Origin: a phage
Direction: 5' to 3' (one strand)
Sequence record: PV467749.1
Length of the DNA stretch: 64,000 nucleotides
In this document: positions 36,982 through 63,998 of the stretch, one piece after another
How positions within the stretch are numbered: position 1 is the stretch's first letter
Layout: each line of letters starts with the position of its first letter
Translations under genes and position numbers: made by a program
Notes under the pieces: model-generated
What the model was told of the DNA's origin: nothing
The model's database searches: none
The model's input: the letters and a program-made list of their open reading frames with translations, nothing else

Positions 36982-38822
36982 CCATTCCCAAGCATTTTGT
37001 ATGCTTGTGTCTTACTAGACACTTTAAAGAAATCTACAGGAATACCCTGTAATTTACAACATTCTACTACACTTAAGTGTCTATAGTCAATATTTCTTTT
37101 ACCATTCTCCAATAGATATTGACGATTAATCGTTGGGTCACGAAACACCAACTGTCGTCTTGATTTATTAAAGTACTGGTTACAATCACCACCCTTAAAA
37201 TAGTTAGCATCTATACAGTACGAAGCGGTTCTGTCAGTGTACCAACCATCTTCAATGATATCTTGAAGTTTAGGGGCATTTGATAATGCAGGTGGTATAA
37301 AAAGCTTATCAGTACTGCACCAGTAGTATCTCTGCCTGAAGTGAGGCGTATAATGCTGGGAATTTATCAGTACTGGTGTCATCTCAAGAACACTATTAAT
37401 GTATTGCTTGAAATCTTCTTTCATCTTAACATTCTCAAAGAGAACTTTCAAGTTAGGATTTAAACTTTTTATGTGTTGGTAGATATCAACCATCGTGTGA
37501 AACAACATTCCACGTGGGTCATTTATACCACCCTGTTTACCAGCAACTGACCATGCTTGACAATTGTGAACAACTATATTATTTGCAGTGTACGTGTTAT
37601 CAACAGCAACTTCAAAATTATATACAGTTTTCCATTCTCCAGTATGAGTGCTAGTTTTTACACCTTTAACCCACGAATAATTTTTGTCATAAAAAGCTTC
37701 CTCTTTTTTCGGTTGGTCTTTTTTATATGACAAAACATAATAAGGTTTTTGGTTAACAACTCGATTTTCAATAACTTTGGTATTCTCTGGTTGAGTATAG
37801 CTTATATTGGAATGCCTTCCATATACGTTCATTATCAATTGTTGAATACCCAATACACAGTTTATTGATGTTGTAGTGAATTTATAACATCCACTATCAA
37901 TATGTCCATCAGCGTCAAAGTAACCATCAAGAAATGCTTTTTGGTTTTTTATGCATTCCGTGAATAGTTCTGGGTGTACTTGTTTGTTAGAAGCACCCTT
38001 TCCCATTTGTTCACAAAATTCAACCAGATCTTTTGAACATATATAAAATTTATATGAAGTTCTTTCTTTAACATAATTATATTTCATATTCATACCATCA
38101 AAACATGAAACTAATTCATTAAATTCGTCATGTGCACAACAGATGAAAACTCTATATTGGTAACTATTGGTTCTATTGTTACGTTTTACTTTATATGTCC
38201 ATCCATCACCCATAAAGCGACCCATAAAATACCAGAATTTTTCATCTTTCGTTGATTTGTTAGATTCAACTGATTTAACATTACACAGAAAATGGTCATA
38301 TGTCAAATCATGTGCCTCTACCCATTCTGGTTCAGAAAAATGACGTTCATATTGTCTAATGTTGTTATTCCACATAGACGTCATTTTTCTTGAATAAAAG
38401 GGATGATTATCGGTACATTCAATTGGAAGGTGACCTTGACCTGTAATAATACGAGTGGGAGCATTTTTAACACCAGTACTCAAAACTGGATGATATTTAC
38501 CAGTATGTGTCAGTACCATGTCACCAACTTGAATGTCTTTTATATCTTTATGACCTTTGTCTGTCATAATCATGGTTCCTGCTGGGAAGCATGGAAATCC
38601 ACCCATTAATAAATCTATTTTATCCCACTCAATATCCCATTCTCTCCATTTAGTTACATCACCCAATTGGGTGATATCAGGAAAGTTAGCTTGAGATTCA
38701 GCTATTGCGTACTTGTCAATTTCGGATGAATAATATTTTTCAACAGGGATACCAGCATCTTTTAATGCCATGTATCCAACACTCATCCCATTAAAAAGAG
38801 ATAGTACTCTGATAGGTTTCAT
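36933..38822 (-). CDS. DNA (cytosine-5)-methyltransferase, intein-containing
   Basis: Motif I LFNGMSVG; motif IV split as GGFP / CQAWSVAGK by a 343-aa insertion; motif VI LFENV downstream. Confidence 0.75.
   Translation of the reverse strand: MKPIRVLSLFNGMSVGYMALKDAGIPVEKYYSSEIDKYAIAESQANFPDITQLGDVTKWREWDIEWDKIDLLMGGFPCFPAGTMIMTDKGHKDIKDIQVGDMVLTHTGKYHPVLSTGVKNAPTRIITGQGHLPIECTDNHPFYSRKMTSMWNNNIRQYERHFSEPEWVEAHDLTYDHFLCNVKSVESNKSTKDEKFWYFMGRFMGDGWTYKVKRNNRTNSYQYRVFICCAHDEFNELVSCFDGMNMKYNYVKERTSYKFYICSKDLVEFCEQMGKGASNKQVHPELFTECIKNQKAFLDGYFDADGHIDSGCYKFTTTSINCVLGIQQLIMNVYGRHSNISYTQPENTKVIENRVVNQKPYYVLSYKKDQPKKEEAFYDKNYSWVKGVKTSTHTGEWKTVYNFEVAVDNTYTANNIVVHNCQAWSVAGKQGGINDPRGMLFHTMVDIYQHIKSLNPNLKVLFENVKMKEDFKQYINSVLEMTPVLINSQHYTPHFRQRYYWCSTDKLFIPPALSNAPKLQDIIEDGWYTDRTASYCIDANYFKGGDCNQYFNKSRRQLVFRDPTINRQYLLENGKRNIDYRHLSVVECCKLQGIPVDFFKVSSKTQAYKMLGNGWTMPVISHLLREIFF
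37563..38591 (-). mobile_element. intein with LAGLIDADG homing-endonuclease domain
   Basis: Starts CFPAGTMIMTDKG (block A), TDNHPF (block B), two LAGLIDADG-like motifs (FMGRFMGDGW, LDGYFDADGH), ends VVHN followed by Cys. Confidence 0.7.
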
Positions 38823-51818: not shown

Positions 51819-52637
51819 TTAGTGCATCCTTTTGTTACTCTTGTCCTTGTACCACACAAATGTTTTTACTGGTGGGTACTTTTCATTCTTTGGTGGTTCC
51901 GGCATATCATACACAGTTGCATTTCTGAATTTTAAAATGTATGAATCCATTAAACGAATTATACAATAGTTCATGCACTTTTGTGCACGTTCTTTCCAAA
52001 AATGTTTATATGGTTCTGGACACCCAAGATAATCCAATTTGTACATACCCATAGCAGCTTGCATAAAGCGTTGAGCAGAGAACTTACGCTTGTCTACCTT
52101 ACTAGCTCGATGCTGGTCACATGTCCAACTAGAGATACCAGGGAGATGACAGAATAAATCAAAACTCACCATACTATCAAAGTACTTGTTATGACCGTTC
52201 AACTCTCCATAAAATACCGCTTCGGAAACAGTTTCATATAGTGAGTAATTTGTATGTATATGTTCATTGTCAAATATAGCTTTTAGATCTTTGTAAGTTT
52301 CTGGTACTGGTGGCTCTGGTAAAACTTCACCGAACGTCTCTAAGCACCAAATCTTCCACAAGCCTTTCGTAAATTTTACTTCAAGTTCTTTATCGCTGTC
52401 AATATAAAAAGTTTTCTCATTGATAAAAACTTTTCGTGCCATGTATGCTTTGAATACCGCATCAGGGTCGATATCTTCACGCTTGATATCGTCCCATCCT
52501 TTACCGATTCGAGAAATTTCGAATCGTCTCATATACATCCTACATGCCAAATCTTTAGTTGTACTACGATGATACTTGTCGTCTTGGTGAAGTTTGGTAG
52601 TCTCATGGAGAGATTTAAGCATGTTTAAAATTCTCAT
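51819..52637 (-). CDS. hypothetical protein
   Basis: 272-aa ORF. Confidence 0.5.
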   Translation of the reverse strand: MRILNMLKSLHETTKLHQDDKYHRSTTKDLACRMYMRRFEISRIGKGWDDIKREDIDPDAVFKAYMARKVFINEKTFYIDSDKELEVKFTKGLWKIWCLETFGEVLPEPPVPETYKDLKAIFDNEHIHTNYSLYETVSEAVFYGELNGHNKYFDSMVSFDLFCHLPGISSWTCDQHRASKVDKRKFSAQRFMQAAMGMYKLDYLGCPEPYKHFWKERAQKCMNYCIIRLMDSYILKFRNATVYDMPEPPKNEKYPPVKTFVWYKDKSNKRMH

Positions 52638-55908: not shown

Positions 55909-56235
55909 TTAACGACCAAATGTTTGAGCAGAGATGCGTGGATCATTGTCAGATACCAAACTTACTGCTGCTGGATAATCCACGAGATTCATTTTAATAC
56001 CATCAATCTCAATAGTTCTCGACCAACGACCGTGGTCAATTAGAATCCATTGTCCTTCTTTGATATCGGTAATGTCTTCACCAACAGAATATACTTTAGC
56101 CCAACGACAACGAATACCACGTATCTTACCATCATCACTTGTCAGTACAATACCACCTGCGGTTTTACGCTCACCATGTTCTAGTTCAGTTACAATAACT
56201 TTACCTTTACAAGCTGTCATTACTTTATTGGTCAT
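55909..56235 (-). CDS. GroES-like co-chaperonin (Cpn10 family)
   Basis: KVIVTELEHGERKTAGGIVLT matches GroES signature around TAGGIVL. Confidence 0.7.
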   Translation of the reverse strand: MTNKVMTACKGKVIVTELEHGERKTAGGIVLTSDDGKIRGIRCRWAKVYSVGEDITDIKEGQWILIDHGRWSRTIEIDGIKMNLVDYPAAVSLVSDNDPRISAQTFGR

Positions 56236-56238
56236 GAA

Positions 56239-56583
56239 TTACTCCTGATCTTTAGTTTTTGCTCGGCGTGGAGCTTTCTTCTCTTCAGATACTTCAACTT
56301 CTGGTTCTTGTGGTTGAACTTCAAAGCTTTCATCATCCCATACTTCTTCAGTACTATATTCAGCACTGTGAAGTTGGTGTTCAGGAATGAAATCAGGAAT
56401 TTGCATTTCACGTTCTTTTTCTTGGATTAGTTCTTCACGGGTTTTAATGACCGTACCACCTGAACCAATCTTATCACCACGAGCATTTAGGTTTGCATTA
56501 CCTAGTGCTACTTGGTGCTGGTTTTGATACTTTAGCATATCCATATCAATGGTGGTTCCACGATAAGTTGTGTGTTTTGACAT
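56239..56583 (-). CDS. hypothetical protein
   Basis: 114-aa ORF with acidic tail. Confidence 0.45.
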   Translation of the reverse strand: MSKHTTYRGTTIDMDMLKYQNQHQVALGNANLNARGDKIGSGGTVIKTREELIQEKEREMQIPDFIPEHQLHSAEYSTEEVWDDESFEVQPQEPEVEVSEEKKAPRRAKTKDQE

Positions 56584-56646
56584 ATAAAAATCCTTTTTCT
56601 ATGTGAGTGATATAACGCCTCAAACAACATTATATCACATGTTTTT

Positions 56647-57165
56647 CTACCATTTCAAAAATTCATTTACATCTAGTTTATACTTCAAAGAATCAACCAT
56701 ATGCAAATCAATCAGGAACAAACAATACGAAGCCACTGAACTACCACGCCCAAGACCCCAAAAAATATTGTGCTCTTCCATATAATCAACTAACCAGATC
56801 ATACATCTTAAAAGCTTAGTCATGTTGTAATGTTCAAACAAATCAATCTCATACATTACACGTTCACGGGCTTCATCCGATGTACATTTCTGTAAAAAGT
56901 ACTCACGCAAGTTGATGTTATCGTACACTGGATCATAACGCCATAGCTCATGGTTTTTATCATGTTCTATTGTATAATCCAGCATACGCTGTTCTAAACC
57001 AAATTTTTTACAATTATCGTTAAATTTCAATCGTTCCGGTTCATCAATCTCCTGTAGCTGTAAGTACTGAATATCTGCACCACAGTTGATTGCATACACG
57101 ACTGCATTAAGGTTACATTTTACATCACCATTGGGACTTATAAATCTGTTTCCTTGTACTTTCAT
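56647..57165 (-). CDS. hypothetical protein with DnaE-like segment
   Basis: LLRCMIWLVDYMEEHNIFWGLGRGSSVASYCLFLIDLHMVDSLKYKLDVNEFL parallels Pol III alpha YFLIVWDFI...[25 protein letters not shown]...FERFL. Confidence 0.45.
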   Translation of the reverse strand: MKVQGNRFISPNGDVKCNLNAVVYAINCGADIQYLQLQEIDEPERLKFNDNCKKFGLEQRMLDYTIEHDKNHELWRYDPVYDNINLREYFLQKCTSDEARERVMYEIDLFEHYNMTKLLRCMIWLVDYMEEHNIFWGLGRGSSVASYCLFLIDLHMVDSLKYKLDVNEFLKW

Positions 57166-57436
57166 TTTTCTTCTTCTGATCCTCTTCGTTATCCGTTAAG
57201 TAAGAGTTCATGTCAAATATACATGGGTCTTGCTCATCATAGGAGGTTTTTTCTTTTTGTCCCTGACGAATCTCTAATTCAGCATAGCACTGATTCAGAA
57301 CGGTTTGCATGTTACCAACAATCATATCACTCATACCTGCTGCACGAGCAGACGTAATACGCATCGATTGTTCGTTAATTTTCAATTGTAACTCTTTCTC
57401 GGTCATGGTTGATGGATCAAAAAATGGATTGAACAT
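57125..57436 (-). CDS. hypothetical protein
   Basis: 103-aa ORF. Confidence 0.4.
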   Translation of the reverse strand: MFNPFFDPSTMTEKELQLKINEQSMRITSARAAGMSDMIVGNMQTVLNQCYAELEIRQGQKEKTSYDEQDPCIFDMNSYLTDNEEDQKKKNESTRKQIYKSQW

Positions 57437-57437
57437 A

Positions 57438-59861
57438 TCATCCTCCTAAATTGCTGTTTTGTAATGAAATCAAAAATGTATCATGAACGTAGTTTTCGAA
57501 TTCATGTGCAAAGAATCCAAACTCAACTCCTGTGATTTCAAACTCAACACCAACCATCTTACCATGTTCATTGTTCTGAAGTAAAGTGTTAAAGAATGCT
57601 TCACCCTTTCCTGGTGCACAATATGCAACTGGAATGATTGGCATAAATTTCTTTTCAACTCCATTTTCTTCGTATGGGTGATTCATGAAGCGAGGAACAG
57701 TGTCAAGCATCTCATCAGAAATTCCTGGTATAGCATCTACATACAAACCACGGTTTTGTAAATCAGTTGGGTCTTTCACAAGGTTAGTTGTGTCTTCGCC
57801 AATTGCTGCAAAAATATTTTGACGCAAGCCAAATATTTCACCGAGTGTTCCGTTATCAATTTGCGTGTAACTTCTTGGATTCTTAGAAACCGACACCAAT
57901 GAACCTGCGGGTAAAACTTCACGGTATAATATATCATACTGCAAGTTACCTTGGTTGTCAAGTGCTGACATTACTTTATAGTTGCCCATTACCATTCTAA
58001 ATTTTCCATCAGGTATAGTTGCACCAGATTGGTTTATGATATTTTCCCTAAGTACTTTTTTAATATCACTCAACGTAGTGTAAGTATAGTTCTGACTCAA
58101 AAAGTTTTCTTTTAATAGAATACGTGGTACTTTTTGTAACCCGTATCTATCATCTGATTGACGATGGAAAGCTTGTTTTGTAAATGATGGTGTACTAATA
58201 CACTTAAACCATTCACGTTCAAAATAAACAGAAGGTACAATATGTGCACTTAAGTAGTTTTGTCCAAAACCACGTACAATTTTCAGTTTAAATAACTTGG
58301 ACGCAACACCACCTTCAGTGTCATATGCTTTGATGTTGAATTCTAATTTTATATCATCATTTGCACTGAAATCTAAACTTTTTGCATATGCCGTCCCGAC
58401 CAAGAACCCATCTGCGGTGAGGTCCAAACCATATTTGCGAATATCATCAGGCCCACCATCTAATACATAAGATACCTGATTAGTACTGGTAGTTTGTATT
58501 TGTGGATAAGTACTGTGACCGAAATATTCACCCACATGAATACTACCTAAATCACTATCAGTTGTGAAGTCTATTGAGTTTCCTTCTTCTGCGTTCACTA
58601 GAACACGGAACATCTTCTCTTCACCTATAATATTCTCACCTAAGCTTGAATCATAATATCCTAAATCAATCCAATCTGAACTTTTAAACACTGGCTTTGT
58701 TTCACCTAGATCATATTCACCAGAGATTACATATGGATATACAACGTTATCTTTCAACTGATACAAATGATTAGGTAAAGGTTTATCACCATCAGCGTAT
58801 ATACCATCTACATTGTCTGGACATACCCACATTTGATATGCTTTGAAACGTTGGTTTATAGCGAAGCGGTCAGTGTCATAACTATATGTACTCAAAATAT
58901 CAACAATTTCAACTTTGAAATATGCATCACATGCATCAGAGTCATATAGGAATGTTTGCAGAAATTGTCCATTTGGGTTGAAAACCAATCCTGAATCTAG
59001 TAACTCCCCAGAGCTAGTTTGAATATTAACCTTAATTTCTTTATTAATACCAAATACAGGCCATATATTATCAATAGGACGTAGGATTGCATAATCATCA
59101 GTAATGTGGCGAGCAGGAACTTCTGCTGGGGTCATATCGAGTAGACGATACGCTGGATAAAATACTCTAGGAGATAGGTCAGTTGATGTATCCGTTCCTA
59201 AAATAAATGGACGACGACGACCAAATCCCTGTACAAATAAAGTACTGTTGGAACCGTATTCAATATCACCAATACAATATAATTTGTCATCATCACCGAT
59301 TTCGATTCCAGGAGTAACCCACACTTCCTGACTATCATATTCAATTGTTACTTCATTTGAACCAATTTCACCACTAGGGGAAATGTTACCATAGTACATA
59401 ACATTTACTGCTTGAAGATAGAAGTTAATCTGTTCAGAGTTGTTAAATGTACCATCATCTTTACAATGCAATTTAATAAAATAAACATCTTCGGTATTAG
59501 TGCTTGCCGATAGATCAAATTGAGTTTTATCAATTTTACATTTGTGCTTACCATTAATCAACTTGTTACCAGTAATACCTGATGATATAGGTGTGAGATT
59601 AGATTCATCATTACCAACATACACTGCGTAGTGATCTTCTGGTTGAAATACTGCATCAGAACTATCCAAACCCTGAATAGTTAGAATCATCTCTAAGTAT
59701 TCGTTTTCATTAAGTATATAACTATCATCCGTTGTGGTTTCTTTGTTGATACTCAAACGCACAAGAATGTCTTGTCCTTCTTGTATATATCGAGCATCGG
59801 CTTTTATATCCCATCTAGGGGTAAAAGTTGTCATTATAATTCTCCATAGCCAAGCTACCAT
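57438..59861 (-). CDS. large hypothetical protein (possibly virion structural)
   Basis: 807-aa ORF; no ATPase or nuclease motifs seen; likely start at Met10. Confidence 0.55.
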   Translation of the reverse strand: MVAWLWRIIMTTFTPRWDIKADARYIQEGQDILVRLSINKETTTDDSYILNENEYLEMILTIQGLDSSDAVFQPEDHYAVYVGNDESNLTPISSGITGNKLINGKHKCKIDKTQFDLSASTNTEDVYFIKLHCKDDGTFNNSEQINFYLQAVNVMYYGNISPSGEIGSNEVTIEYDSQEVWVTPGIEIGDDDKLYCIGDIEYGSNSTLFVQGFGRRRPFILGTDTSTDLSPRVFYPAYRLLDMTPAEVPARHITDDYAILRPIDNIWPVFGINKEIKVNIQTSSGELLDSGLVFNPNGQFLQTFLYDSDACDAYFKVEIVDILSTYSYDTDRFAINQRFKAYQMWVCPDNVDGIYADGDKPLPNHLYQLKDNVVYPYVISGEYDLGETKPVFKSSDWIDLGYYDSSLGENIIGEEKMFRVLVNAEEGNSIDFTTDSDLGSIHVGEYFGHSTYPQIQTTSTNQVSYVLDGGPDDIRKYGLDLTADGFLVGTAYAKSLDFSANDDIKLEFNIKAYDTEGGVASKLFKLKIVRGFGQNYLSAHIVPSVYFEREWFKCISTPSFTKQAFHRQSDDRYGLQKVPRILLKENFLSQNYTYTTLSDIKKVLRENIINQSGATIPDGKFRMVMGNYKVMSALDNQGNLQYDILYREVLPAGSLVSVSKNPRSYTQIDNGTLGEIFGLRQNIFAAIGEDTTNLVKDPTDLQNRGLYVDAIPGISDEMLDTVPRFMNHPYEENGVEKKFMPIIPVAYCAPGKGEAFFNTLLQNNEHGKMVGVEFEITGVEFGFFAHEFENYVHDTFLISLQNSNLGG

Positions 59862-59874
59862 TATCTATAGATTA

Positions 59875-59912
59875 TTTATATAAAGGACAAGGAAGACCCA
59901 TAAAGGTCTTCC
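59875..59912 (-). terminator. rho-independent terminator
   Basis: Hairpin GGAAGACC-TTTATG-GGTCTTCC then T-rich tract after gp52 stop. Confidence 0.5.
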
Positions 59913-63449: not shown

Positions 63450-63998
63450 TTATTTTACCAGAAGTAATTGTAATTCAGCACTAGGACTAAATTCATCATC
63501 ACTCCAGTACTTGTGAACCTTCTCTGGACTAGCCTTAGCCAATACTTCACCACCACCTACAATGTAGACTTGGTGTGAACCAATCAATCGGGTCCAGAAT
63601 TTAATTGCATCATCTGTGTGAAGACTGTCACTTAGTACTTTAATACCATGAGAAACCATATCCATAAAGATATTATAGATGATACCTTTAGTACCAGTTT
63701 TAGAGGCCGTAGCAGAAATCTCAAACACTTGTGGTACACCAACCACTGCATCATTCGACAAATGTCCACTAACGATAGCAAGCTGTTTACCCGCTTTATC
63801 ATAGGCAATAAACCCAGTACCATTCTTATTCATAAACACATCATAATCTTTGTGTTCTGCGAACTTAACCATGTTGTGCTTACCTGTCATCTCGGCAGTT
63901 TTGTCAACGAACTCGTCACGGTCTTGGCCTTGGAAACTATCGAAACGTTGTGGCATTTCTTCCAATTTCTCTTTATGGTCTTCTTCACATGAATCCAT
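63450..63998 (-). CDS. hypothetical protein (possibly 5'-truncated by window edge)
   Basis: 182-aa ORF reaching the window end. Confidence 0.45.
   Translation of the reverse strand: MDSCEEDHKEKLEEMPQRFDSFQGQDRDEFVDKTAEMTGKHNMVKFAEHKDYDVFMNKNGTGFIAYDKAGKQLAIVSGHLSNDAVVGVPQVFEISATASKTGTKGIIYNIFMDMVSHGIKVLSDSLHTDDAIKFWTRLIGSHQVYIVGGGEVLAKASPEKVHKYWSDDEFSPSAELQLLLVK

What the first reader, a model, noticed from the sequence alone, without database searches (positions are those of the whole stretch)
56647..57165. Stand-alone 172-aa ORF resembling an internal segment of DNA polymerase III alpha (DnaE)
The C-terminal 60 residues parallel the conserved DnaE stretch around [24 protein letters not shown]...FERFL, including the preceding hydrophobic YFLIVWDF-like segment. 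A DnaE-derived fragment as a separate phage gene beside the topoisomerase and clamp-loader genes would be unusual. It could be a replisome-interacting decoy or regulator, or a domain remnant.
Basis: inference. Interest (0 to 1): 0.6.

Follow-up and report, generated by a model that had tools for sequence, protein, structure and literature searches.

The report
Half of split mini-DnaE polymerase
This 172-residue jumbo-phage gene really is DnaE-like, but it is the already described N-terminal half of a two-gene "minimal" DNA polymerase III alpha; in near-identical phages the catalytic half lies about 31 kb away, outside this window.

Summary

The window comes from a RaK2/121Q-like jumbo coliphage. 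The protein belongs to a large stand-alone family: at least 468 clusters at 50% identity, listed members 156-196 aa, dN/dS about 0.06. All members end about 10 residues before the catalytic DxD motif.

Iyer et al. 2021 (Viruses 13:63) published exactly this as a "split minimal Pol III alpha" of group 2.2 jumbo phages. GenBank already labels the gene DNA polymerase III alpha.

The decoy and remnant readings are not supported. The finding is already known, though the enzyme has never been tested biochemically.

The parts
56647..57165 (-). N-terminal unit of the split minimal Pol III alpha (172 aa plus stop). It is a member of phrog_11127 and orthologous to 121Q gp56, CBB_328 and RaK2 ORF162.
   Evidence: ORF. 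phrog_11127 matches full length with E=3.9e-85. The protein is 100% identical in TH47, EC.P1, Turkey3, vB_Ec-M-J, WPEC5 and WPEC3. dN/dS is 0.055-0.07.
56653..56898 (-). DnaE-homologous core, residues 90-171. It corresponds to the helices and GS loop of the Pol-beta-like nucleotidyltransferase palm (E. coli DnaE about 313-392). It ends about 10 residues before the position of the catalytic PDxDxDF motif.
56737..56751 (-). G139-R140-G141-S142-S143, the GRGS 'GS' motif. It is invariant in the family and matches DnaE R362-G363-S364.
   Evidence: Invariant columns in the 53-sequence alignment and in DnaE. The sequence was read directly. The AlphaFold pLDDT dips to 67 here when the protein is modelled alone.
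56899..57165 (-). Family-specific N-terminal region, residues 1-89. It has no PHP domain and no Pfam match. Part of it superposes on the DnaE palm in the fold comparison.
56239..56583 (-). Conserved 114-aa neighbour (phrog_14844) of unknown function, always immediately downstream of the N-unit. This is context and a possible further partner, not shown to be one.
   Evidence: Same gene order in 121Q, RaK2, MIJ3/PA5oct, XacN1 and Phosso. Present in 84 phage records of the same clade. No Pfam match.

Best explanation
The ORF encodes the N-terminal (nucleotide-binding) subunit of a two-gene, minimal C-family (Pol III alpha/DnaE-like) polymerase, typical of RaK2/121Q/PA5oct/XacN1/Atu_ph07-type jumbo phages.

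Shown here: the N-unit carries the helical part of the Pol-beta-like palm and the invariant GRGSS loop, and it stops just before the metal-binding strand. A separate 212-aa gene (fEgEco12 g381, 121Q gp16, phrog_11778) starts about 15 residues before an invariant D-I-D-I-D, which corresponds to E. coli D401/D403/D405. It continues with K-x-D (K553/D555), R-P (the RPG motif) and FKKxH (the H760 steric gate). It lacks the thumb and much of the fingers.

Inferred: the two proteins dock, with the GS strand of the N-unit pairing onto the beta-sheet of the C-unit. This would rebuild one active site of about 384 residues that adds dNTPs to a primer. It would work beside the phage's T4-like family-B replicase, for example in repair, gap filling or synthesis of one strand, as Iyer et al. 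proposed.

In phages 99% identical to the window, the C-unit lies about 31 kb from the N-unit. By collinearity that puts it about 24 kb beyond the right end of this window.
For: Homology of the N-unit to DnaE.

The stand-alone form is the rule. All 110 word-index homologues are about 170 aa. In the exhaustive search 468 clusters reach E<=1e-30, and the best 150 are 156-196 aa with the profile end at the protein end. Distant phages end at the same EFL[KNR].

Purifying selection: dN/dS is 0.055-0.07.

Partner found by scanning 290 kb of the 99.3%-identical phage fEgEco12 with a DnaE HMM. The only hits are the N-unit and g381, which scores E=8.7e-5 with collinear TDIDIDF, QKVDIL, IRPG and FKKPHAYAY motifs. 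hhalign of the C family against DnaE gives probability 96.5%, E=7.5e-10 over E. coli 507-641. A greedy alignment spans 436-785 and pairs H190 with H760. D16, D18, D20, K80, D82, R149, P150 and H190 are invariant in 42 sequences.

The roles of D401/D403/D555, D405 and H760 are taken from PMC3919608 and PMC8485763.

Co-occurrence: the N-unit is in 93 phage records and the C-unit in 96, with matching genus counts. The apparent exceptions, RsoM2USA and the Alishewanella phages, have both units when a closer query is used.

Both genes sit in conserved replication blocks, the clamp-loader block and the primase-helicase block.

A split in the same loop occurs naturally in the Cellulophaga phage phi19:2 DnaE.

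The same conclusion was published by Iyer et al. 2021.
Against: There is no direct evidence that the two proteins bind each other or polymerise anything. A complex could not be modelled with the tools available.

The genes were never adjacent or fused in any genome examined. They lie 4 to 224 kb apart, which is unusual for obligate partners.

The C-unit is barely recognised by Pfam (PF17657, E=0.04).

The DnaE-invariant R390 is replaced by a conserved Glu (E168) in the N family.

The C-unit lacks the thumb and the finger segment that holds the DnaE-invariant Q687/E688 and K715. Neither unit has PHP, clamp-binding, HhH or OB parts. Canonical processive DNA synthesis is therefore doubtful, and the chemistry could differ.

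The partner is outside the window. Its presence in this exact genome is inferred from relatives that are 99.0-99.5% identical.
Confidence: 0.7

Rival explanations
1. Same two-part enzyme, but not a templated DNA polymerase. The reconstituted Pol-beta-like nucleotidyltransferase would do other chemistry, for example template-independent tailing, primer or short-patch synthesis on a special substrate, or nucleotide or DNA modification.
For: The thumb and most of the fingers are missing, including the DnaE-invariant Q687/E688 and K715. R390 is replaced by Glu in the N-unit. No clamp-binding or DNA-binding HhH/OB domains are present. The phage already has a complete family-B replicase, a clamp and a clamp loader.
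Against: The His equivalent to the DnaE steric gate H760 is invariant. So are the DnaE-specific fourth Asp and the K-x-D motif. This argues for dNTP use in a DnaE-like active site.
Confidence: 0.15
2. Decoy or regulator. The fragment would bind a host Pol III holoenzyme component, or host DnaE itself, and so redirect or shut off host replication. It would act independently of the C-unit.
For: It is a DnaE-derived piece that cannot be catalytic on its own. The AlphaFold model of the protein alone is fairly confident, pLDDT 85.7, so it may fold autonomously.
Against: It co-occurs with the complementary catalytic half in every lineage checked. The catalytic-site GRGSS loop is its most conserved feature. 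The segment retained is palm core, not the beta-, tau- or epsilon-binding regions of DnaE (my own knowledge of E. coli Pol III). Hosts range from Enterobacteria to Rhizobia and Xanthomonads while the motif stays fixed.
Confidence: 0.06
3. Structural or adaptor subunit of the phage replisome that no longer needs catalysis, for example working with the neighbouring clamp loader or the conserved 114-aa protein. Under this reading the co-occurrence with the C-unit reflects only shared ancestry.
For: The order N-unit, 114-aa gene, GroES-like gene, clamp loader is deeply conserved.
Against: Much of the core gene order is conserved in this clade generally, so synteny is weak evidence. The invariant residues are the nucleotide-binding motif.
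Confidence: 0.07
4. Non-functional remnant of a degraded dnaE gene.
For: The ORF is short and lacks the catalytic aspartates.
Against: dN/dS is 0.055-0.07 with synonymous sites saturated. At least 468 clusters at 50% identity share the same length and the same end point. Invariant motifs persist at about 30% identity.
Confidence: 0.01

Closest known systems
Split minimal DNA polymerase III alpha of group 2.2 jumbo phages (Iyer, Anantharaman, Krishnan, Burroughs & Aravind 2021, Viruses 13:63, PMC7824862), N-terminal unit
   Same: It is the same protein family, the same phage clade (RaK2-like, Atu_ph07 and others) and the same architecture. There is an N-terminal NTP-binding unit and a distantly encoded C-terminal Mg2+/template-binding unit, alongside a family-B polymerase.
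   Different: Nothing essential differs. This window shows only the N-unit. The details added here are listed under 'why it matters'.
Bacterial DnaE / Pol III alpha palm domain (E. coli residues about 313-392; PDB 5fku, 2hpi, 5lew) and PolC (3f2b)
   Same: The sequence motif YFL..., GPGRGS..., FERFL is shared, and so is the fold. The GS loop is invariant.
   Different: The protein is 172 aa rather than about 1160 aa. It has no PHP, thumb, fingers, beta-binding, HhH, OB or tau-binding parts. The catalytic Asp residues are on another polypeptide. DnaE R390 is Glu here. The 89-residue N-terminal region is family-specific.
Two-ORF DnaE of Cellulophaga phage phi19:2 (gp044 525 aa and gp045 673 aa)
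   Same: The split falls in the same surface loop between FERFLN and PDxDxDF.
   Different: There the two genes are adjacent, the enzyme is otherwise full-length with a PHP domain, and the break lies inside an insertion. Here the halves are 4-224 kb apart and both are strongly reduced.
Split-intein DnaE of cyanobacteria (my own knowledge; not tested here)
   Same: The dnaE product is encoded by two distant genes.
   Different: The cyanobacterial halves are joined by protein trans-splicing at a different site in the protein. I saw no extra intein-sized sequence at the C-terminus of the N-unit or the N-terminus of the C-unit.

Membership tests
C-family DNA polymerase catalytic subunit (DnaE/PolC; Pfam PF07733) | Significant match to the PF07733 profile above the curated cut-off | tested here: met
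   36.4 bits against a cut-off of 23.9, E=5.8e-9, but only profile positions 15-95 of 260.
C-family DNA polymerase catalytic subunit (DnaE/PolC; Pfam PF07733) | Pol-beta-like GS motif (E. coli R362-G363-S364) | tested here: met
   G139-R140-G141-S142-S143 is invariant in 53 sequences and aligns to the DnaE GRGS motif.
C-family DNA polymerase catalytic subunit (DnaE/PolC; Pfam PF07733) | Three catalytic aspartates (E. coli D401, D403, D555) in the polypeptide | tested here: not met
   The ORF ends about 10 residues before the DxD position. These residues are found on the separate C-unit as D16, D18 and D82. Alone, this ORF is therefore not a polymerase.
C-family DNA polymerase catalytic subunit (DnaE/PolC; Pfam PF07733) | N-terminal PHP domain and C-terminal HhH, beta-binding and OB domains (nearly universal per PMC3919608) | tested here: not met
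   The ORF has no Pfam hit other than PF07733. A full-length DnaE HMM finds only the N- and C-units in the 354 kb scanned, made up of the window and fEgEco12 1-290 kb. fEgEco12 319-375 kb was not scanned.
C-family DNA polymerase catalytic subunit (DnaE/PolC; Pfam PF07733) | Palm fold similar to solved Pol III alpha and PolC structures | tested here: met
Split minimal Pol III alpha of group 2.2 jumbo phages, N-terminal unit (Iyer et al. 2021; phrog_11127) | Stand-alone protein of about 170 aa covering only the NTP-binding subdomain | tested here: met
   phrog_11127 matches full length with E=3.9e-85. Family lengths are 156-196 aa.
Split minimal Pol III alpha of group 2.2 jumbo phages, N-terminal unit (Iyer et al. 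2021; phrog_11127) | A separately encoded C-terminal unit with the Mg2+-binding motifs in the same genome | tested here: met
   Found in fEgEco12 (g381) and 100% identical in TH47, EC.P1, Turkey3, WPEC5 and BF17, all phages 99.0-99.3% identical to the window. It is not inside the window, so for this exact genome it is inferred.
Split minimal Pol III alpha of group 2.2 jumbo phages, N-terminal unit (Iyer et al. 2021; phrog_11127) | Host genome is a group 2.2 jumbo phage with a family-B polymerase, RFC-like clamp loader, phage sigma factor and gp23-type capsid | tested here: met
   The window is 99.5% identical to 354-384 kb coliphages. The fEgEco12 annotation lists DNA polymerase g356, clamp g359, clamp loader g425, sigma factor g336 and major capsid protein g350.
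Split minimal Pol III alpha of group 2.2 jumbo phages, N-terminal unit (Iyer et al. 2021; phrog_11127) | The two units assemble into an active enzyme | not testable with these tools
   This is proposed, not shown, in the paper. No multimer prediction or biochemistry was available here.

The most novel reading that the evidence does not exclude
The two-piece mini Pol III may not be a simple back-up polymerase. It could instead be a regulated, assembly-dependent nucleotidyltransferase. The N-unit (clamp-loader block, overlapping its upstream gene) and the C-unit (primase-helicase block) would be made or brought together only at a particular stage or site. The always-adjacent 114-aa protein might act as a third subunit replacing the missing thumb or DNA-binding parts. 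Alternatively, the N-unit may also dock onto host DnaE. None of this is excluded by the data, and none is supported beyond synteny.
Probability: 0.12. Interest if true: 0.7.

Novelty: already known. Interest (0 to 1): 0.3.

Why it matters
If the two halves really rebuild an active site, this is the smallest known C-family polymerase core (about 384 residues in two chains). It occurs in viruses that otherwise replicate with an archaeo-eukaryotic-type family-B enzyme. Iyer et al. argue that it models the ancestral state of the bacterial replicase.

The enzyme is still untested biochemically, so the locus is a good experimental target. As a discovery, however, it is already published and already annotated.

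This re-analysis adds the following:
- Independent confirmation of the published claim.
- The exact partner gene in the closest relatives.
- Conservation of the steric-gate His and of the DnaE-specific fourth Asp.
- A list of DnaE-invariant elements that are missing, which tempers the "polymerase" label.

Tried and rejected
1. The adjacent 114-aa ORF starts with ...TTIDMDML, which looked like the missing DxD strand. I rejected it. The motif is not conserved (VNMEEM in Phosso), there is no Pfam or HMM similarity to DnaE, and the true partner was found elsewhere.

2. A regex hit for K-x-D-x-L-G in the 272-aa ORF 51819-52637 turned out to be chance. It has no Pfam hit, it belongs to a PHROG of unknown function, and it has no HMM hit.

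3. A weak HMM hit at the window edge (63453-63998, E=0.03) corresponds to the structural protein g417. Its best aligned domain covers only 26 residues (against the cterm HMM), so I treated it as noise.

4. tblastn with E. coli DnaE 377-911 against the phage collection showed no RaK2-like C-units among the rows listed. A profile was needed to find them.

5. Pfam alone would have missed the C-unit (PF17657, E=0.04).

6. No supplementary accession list was available for Iyer et al., so I had to find the partner de novo by fetching 290 kb of fEgEco12.

7. A search for later experimental work on the split enzyme found none. Searches for 'split DNA polymerase III' and for PA5oct returned nothing relevant, and neither did the 2026 jumbo-phage review.

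8. A fused N+C model could not be submitted because of the input restrictions of the structure tool.

Full report

**Source genome.** The 2 kb around the gene is 99.0-99.5% identical to ten coliphage records, nine of 352-386 kb plus one not listed: Ecwhy_1, WPEC3, EC.P1, vB_Ec-M-J, fEgEco12, WPEC5, TH47, Turkey3, BF17 and CMSTMSU. It is about 82% identical to 121Q and PBECO4. The window is therefore from a RaK2/121Q-like jumbo myovirus. In fEgEco12 the gene is g421, "DNA-pol3-alpha domain-containing protein". It lies between a virion structural protein and a hypothetical gene, a GroES-like gene and the clamp loader, with the topoisomerase II subunits upstream.

**A conserved stand-alone family, not a remnant.**
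- tblastn finds the protein in 93 phage records. These include 121Q, RaK2, GAP32, CBB, BF, Erwinia, Yersinia and Salmonella phages, and more distantly PA5oct-like, XacN1, Xoo-sp13, CM1, Phosso, Atu_ph07, SCTP-2 and a Vibrio phage.
- In MIJ3, XacN1 and Phosso the gene is 169-182 aa and stops right after the same EFL[KNR].
- All 110 word-index homologues are about 170 aa and carry PF07733.
- An exhaustive HMMER search of 1.84 billion representatives gives 468 clusters at E<=1e-30. The best 150 are all 156-196 aa, and the end of the profile coincides with the end of the protein.
- Nei-Gojobori dN/dS is 0.055 (window versus RaK2) and 0.070 (121Q versus RaK2). Between the window and 121Q, pS=0.75 (saturated) and pN=0.033.
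- Invariant positions include W75, R102, E106 and G137-x-G139-R140-G141-S142-S143-V144.

**What is missing, and where it is.** The ORF ends about 10 residues before the position of the DnaE motif PDFDVDF, which holds catalytic D401 and D403. No second DnaE-like ORF is in the window.

Iyer et al. [quoted passage not shown] Their accession list was not available. I therefore fetched fEgEco12 positions 1-290,000 and scanned all ORFs with the DnaE HMMs. The only hits were g421 (the N-unit) and g381, a 212-aa "DNA polymerase" at 229,786-230,424 (E=8.7e-5). g381 gave three collinear matches: TDIDIDFKDSK to PDiDvDf...GYQKVDILS...MIRPG to the K-x-D...RPG region, and FKKPHAYAYSL to FnkSHsvayal.

g381 lies 31.2 kb from g421. 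By collinearity with the window it would sit about 24 kb beyond the window's right end. Pfam barely sees it (PF17657, E=0.04), whereas phrog_11778 "DNA polymerase" matches it full length.

**The C-unit is DnaE-like and keeps the active site.** The search returned 789 homologues, and the 120 listed are nearly all about 190-217 aa with no precomputed Pfam domain. In a 42-sequence alignment, D16, D18, D20, H48, K80, D82, R149, P150 and H190 are invariant. hhalign against DnaE gives 96.5% probability and E=7.5e-10 over E. coli 507-641. A greedy alignment spans 436-785 (E=8.6e-8) and pairs H48 with H511, K80/D82 with K553/D555, R149-P150 with the RPG motif, and H190 with H760.

All the palm beta-strands, including those bearing the aspartates, are in the C-unit. 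In the N-unit modelled alone, the stretch around the GS loop is coil with lowered confidence (pLDDT 67-79 for residues 131-150). This fits a strand that needs the partner's sheet, but that is inference.

**Co-occurrence.** The C-unit is in 96 phage records and the N-unit in 93. The genus counts match: Escherichia 34/34, Pseudomonas 11/11, Klebsiella 11/10, Salmonella 8/8, Erwinia 8/8, Xanthomonas 4/4, Yersinia 4/4, and Cronobacter, Pectobacterium and Serratia 2/2 each. Five of the phage records that are at least 99% identical to the window carry a 100%-identical C-unit, and a sixth is 99.5% identical.

RsoM2USA and the Alishewanella phages (141 kb) seemed to have only the C-unit. Both units appear when the XacN1 N-unit is used as the query.

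The distances between the two genes vary widely:

| Phage group | Distance between N- and C-unit genes |
|---|---|
| RsoM2USA | about 4 kb |
| Xoo-sp13 | 14 kb |
| CM1 | 14 kb |
| Asteriusvirus | 31 kb |
| RaK2 and CBB | 33-34 kb |
| PA5oct | 43 kb |
| Atu_ph07 | 182 kb |
| Phosso | 224 kb |

They were never adjacent or fused in the genomes seen. Each gene sits in its own conserved block. The N-unit block runs N-unit, 114-aa gene, GroES-like gene and on to the clamp loader. The C-unit block runs helicase, C-unit, small reverse ORF, virion protein, primase and helicase.

**Mechanism.** The most likely mechanism is a heterodimeric mini C-family polymerase. The N-unit would give the helical half and the GS loop. 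The C-unit would give the metal-binding sheet, the Lys, the steric-gate His and a reduced finger.

The following is shown: homology of each half, complementarity at the break point, conservation of catalytic residues, co-inheritance and purifying selection.

The following is inferred: physical association, polymerase activity and biological role.

Several observations call for caution:
- DnaE-invariant R390 aligns with a conserved Glu (E168) in the N family.
- The C-unit lacks the thumb and the finger segment that holds the DnaE-invariant Q687/E688 and K715.
- There is no PHP, clamp-binding, HhH or OB part.
- The phage already has a family-B polymerase, a clamp, a clamp loader and a DnaQ-like exonuclease.

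A non-canonical nucleotidyltransferase activity therefore remains a serious rival. A natural precedent shows that this loop tolerates a break: Cellulophaga phage phi19:2 encodes its otherwise full-length DnaE as adjacent gp044 and gp045, split between FERFLN and PDIDTDF.

**Comparison with what is known, and verdict.** The gene is annotated "DNA polymerase III alpha subunit" in many GenBank records. The CBB paper noted it as a truncated 172-aa Pol III alpha. The Atu_ph07 paper listed it. Iyer et al. 2021 explained it as one half of a split minimal enzyme. I found no later experimental study. The finding is therefore real and correctly recognised as DnaE-like. It is already known, and the decoy and remnant readings are not supported.

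Noticed in passing
window 57125-57165 (minus strand): The upstream 103-aa ORF (57125..57436, phrog_15348, not annotated in fEgEco12) overlaps the start of the N-unit by 41 nt. The same overlap exists in 121Q (genes 55/56) and RaK2 (ORF161/162). The first ~65 nt of the N-unit gene are almost invariant at the nucleotide level in all three phages, although synonymous sites elsewhere are saturated. This suggests dual-coding constraint or translational coupling.
   Followed up: partly
window 56629-56658 (minus strand): There is a near-consensus sigma-70-type promoter, TTGAAA-18 nt-TATAAT with an extended -10 TG (11 of 12 matches). Its -35 box lies in the last codons of the N-unit, and it points at the 114-aa gene. 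It is conserved in 121Q. RaK2 has an equivalent TTGAAC-17 nt-TATAAT a little further downstream. The -10 sits inside a 9-bp inverted repeat, GTGATATAA...TTATATCAC.
   Followed up: partly
window 56239-56583 (minus strand): A 114-aa protein of unknown function (phrog_14844, no Pfam hit) has a conserved N-terminal motif RG..VDMD.L..N...VA.GN.N.NARGD.LG.GG and a charged tail. It always lies directly downstream of the N-unit, even in PA5oct-like phages, XacN1 and Phosso. It could be a further partner, or this could simply be conserved gene order.
   Followed up: partly
window 55909-56235 (minus strand): A GroES/T4 gp31-like co-chaperonin (Pfam Cpn10 E=1e-4; phrog_931 'head morphogenesis') lies between the N-unit block and the clamp loader. 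fEgEco12 carries a second GroES-like gene (g361) next to the sliding clamp.
   Followed up: no
window 59873-59880 (minus strand): The T4-type late promoter box TATAAATA occurs only twice in the 64 kb window, against 9.4 expected. One copy lies 12 nt upstream of the ATG of the 807-aa virion structural protein (57438..59861).
   Followed up: no
L007 (Cellulophaga phage phi19:2) 871-4471: DnaE is encoded as two adjacent ORFs, gp044 (525 aa) and gp045 (673 aa). The break lies within an insertion in the same loop between FERFLN and PDIDTDF where the jumbo-phage enzyme is split.
   Followed up: partly
L017 (fEgEco12) 37786-38424, outside the window: The C-terminal unit (212 aa) has no Pfam family above threshold (PF17657 E=0.04) although it returned 789 homologues (E<=0.001). 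A Pfam or NCBIfam model for it appears to be missing. Several GenBank records call it 'putative membrane protein'.
   Followed up: yes
PHROG hits of the N-unit: phrog_11165 (profile length 782, 'DNA polymerase') matches the N-unit at profile positions 37-111. This suggests that some phages have a single-chain DnaE without a PHP domain. phrog_13169 (463 aa) matches at 339-409, suggesting other N-terminal DnaE halves that keep the PHP domain.
   Followed up: no
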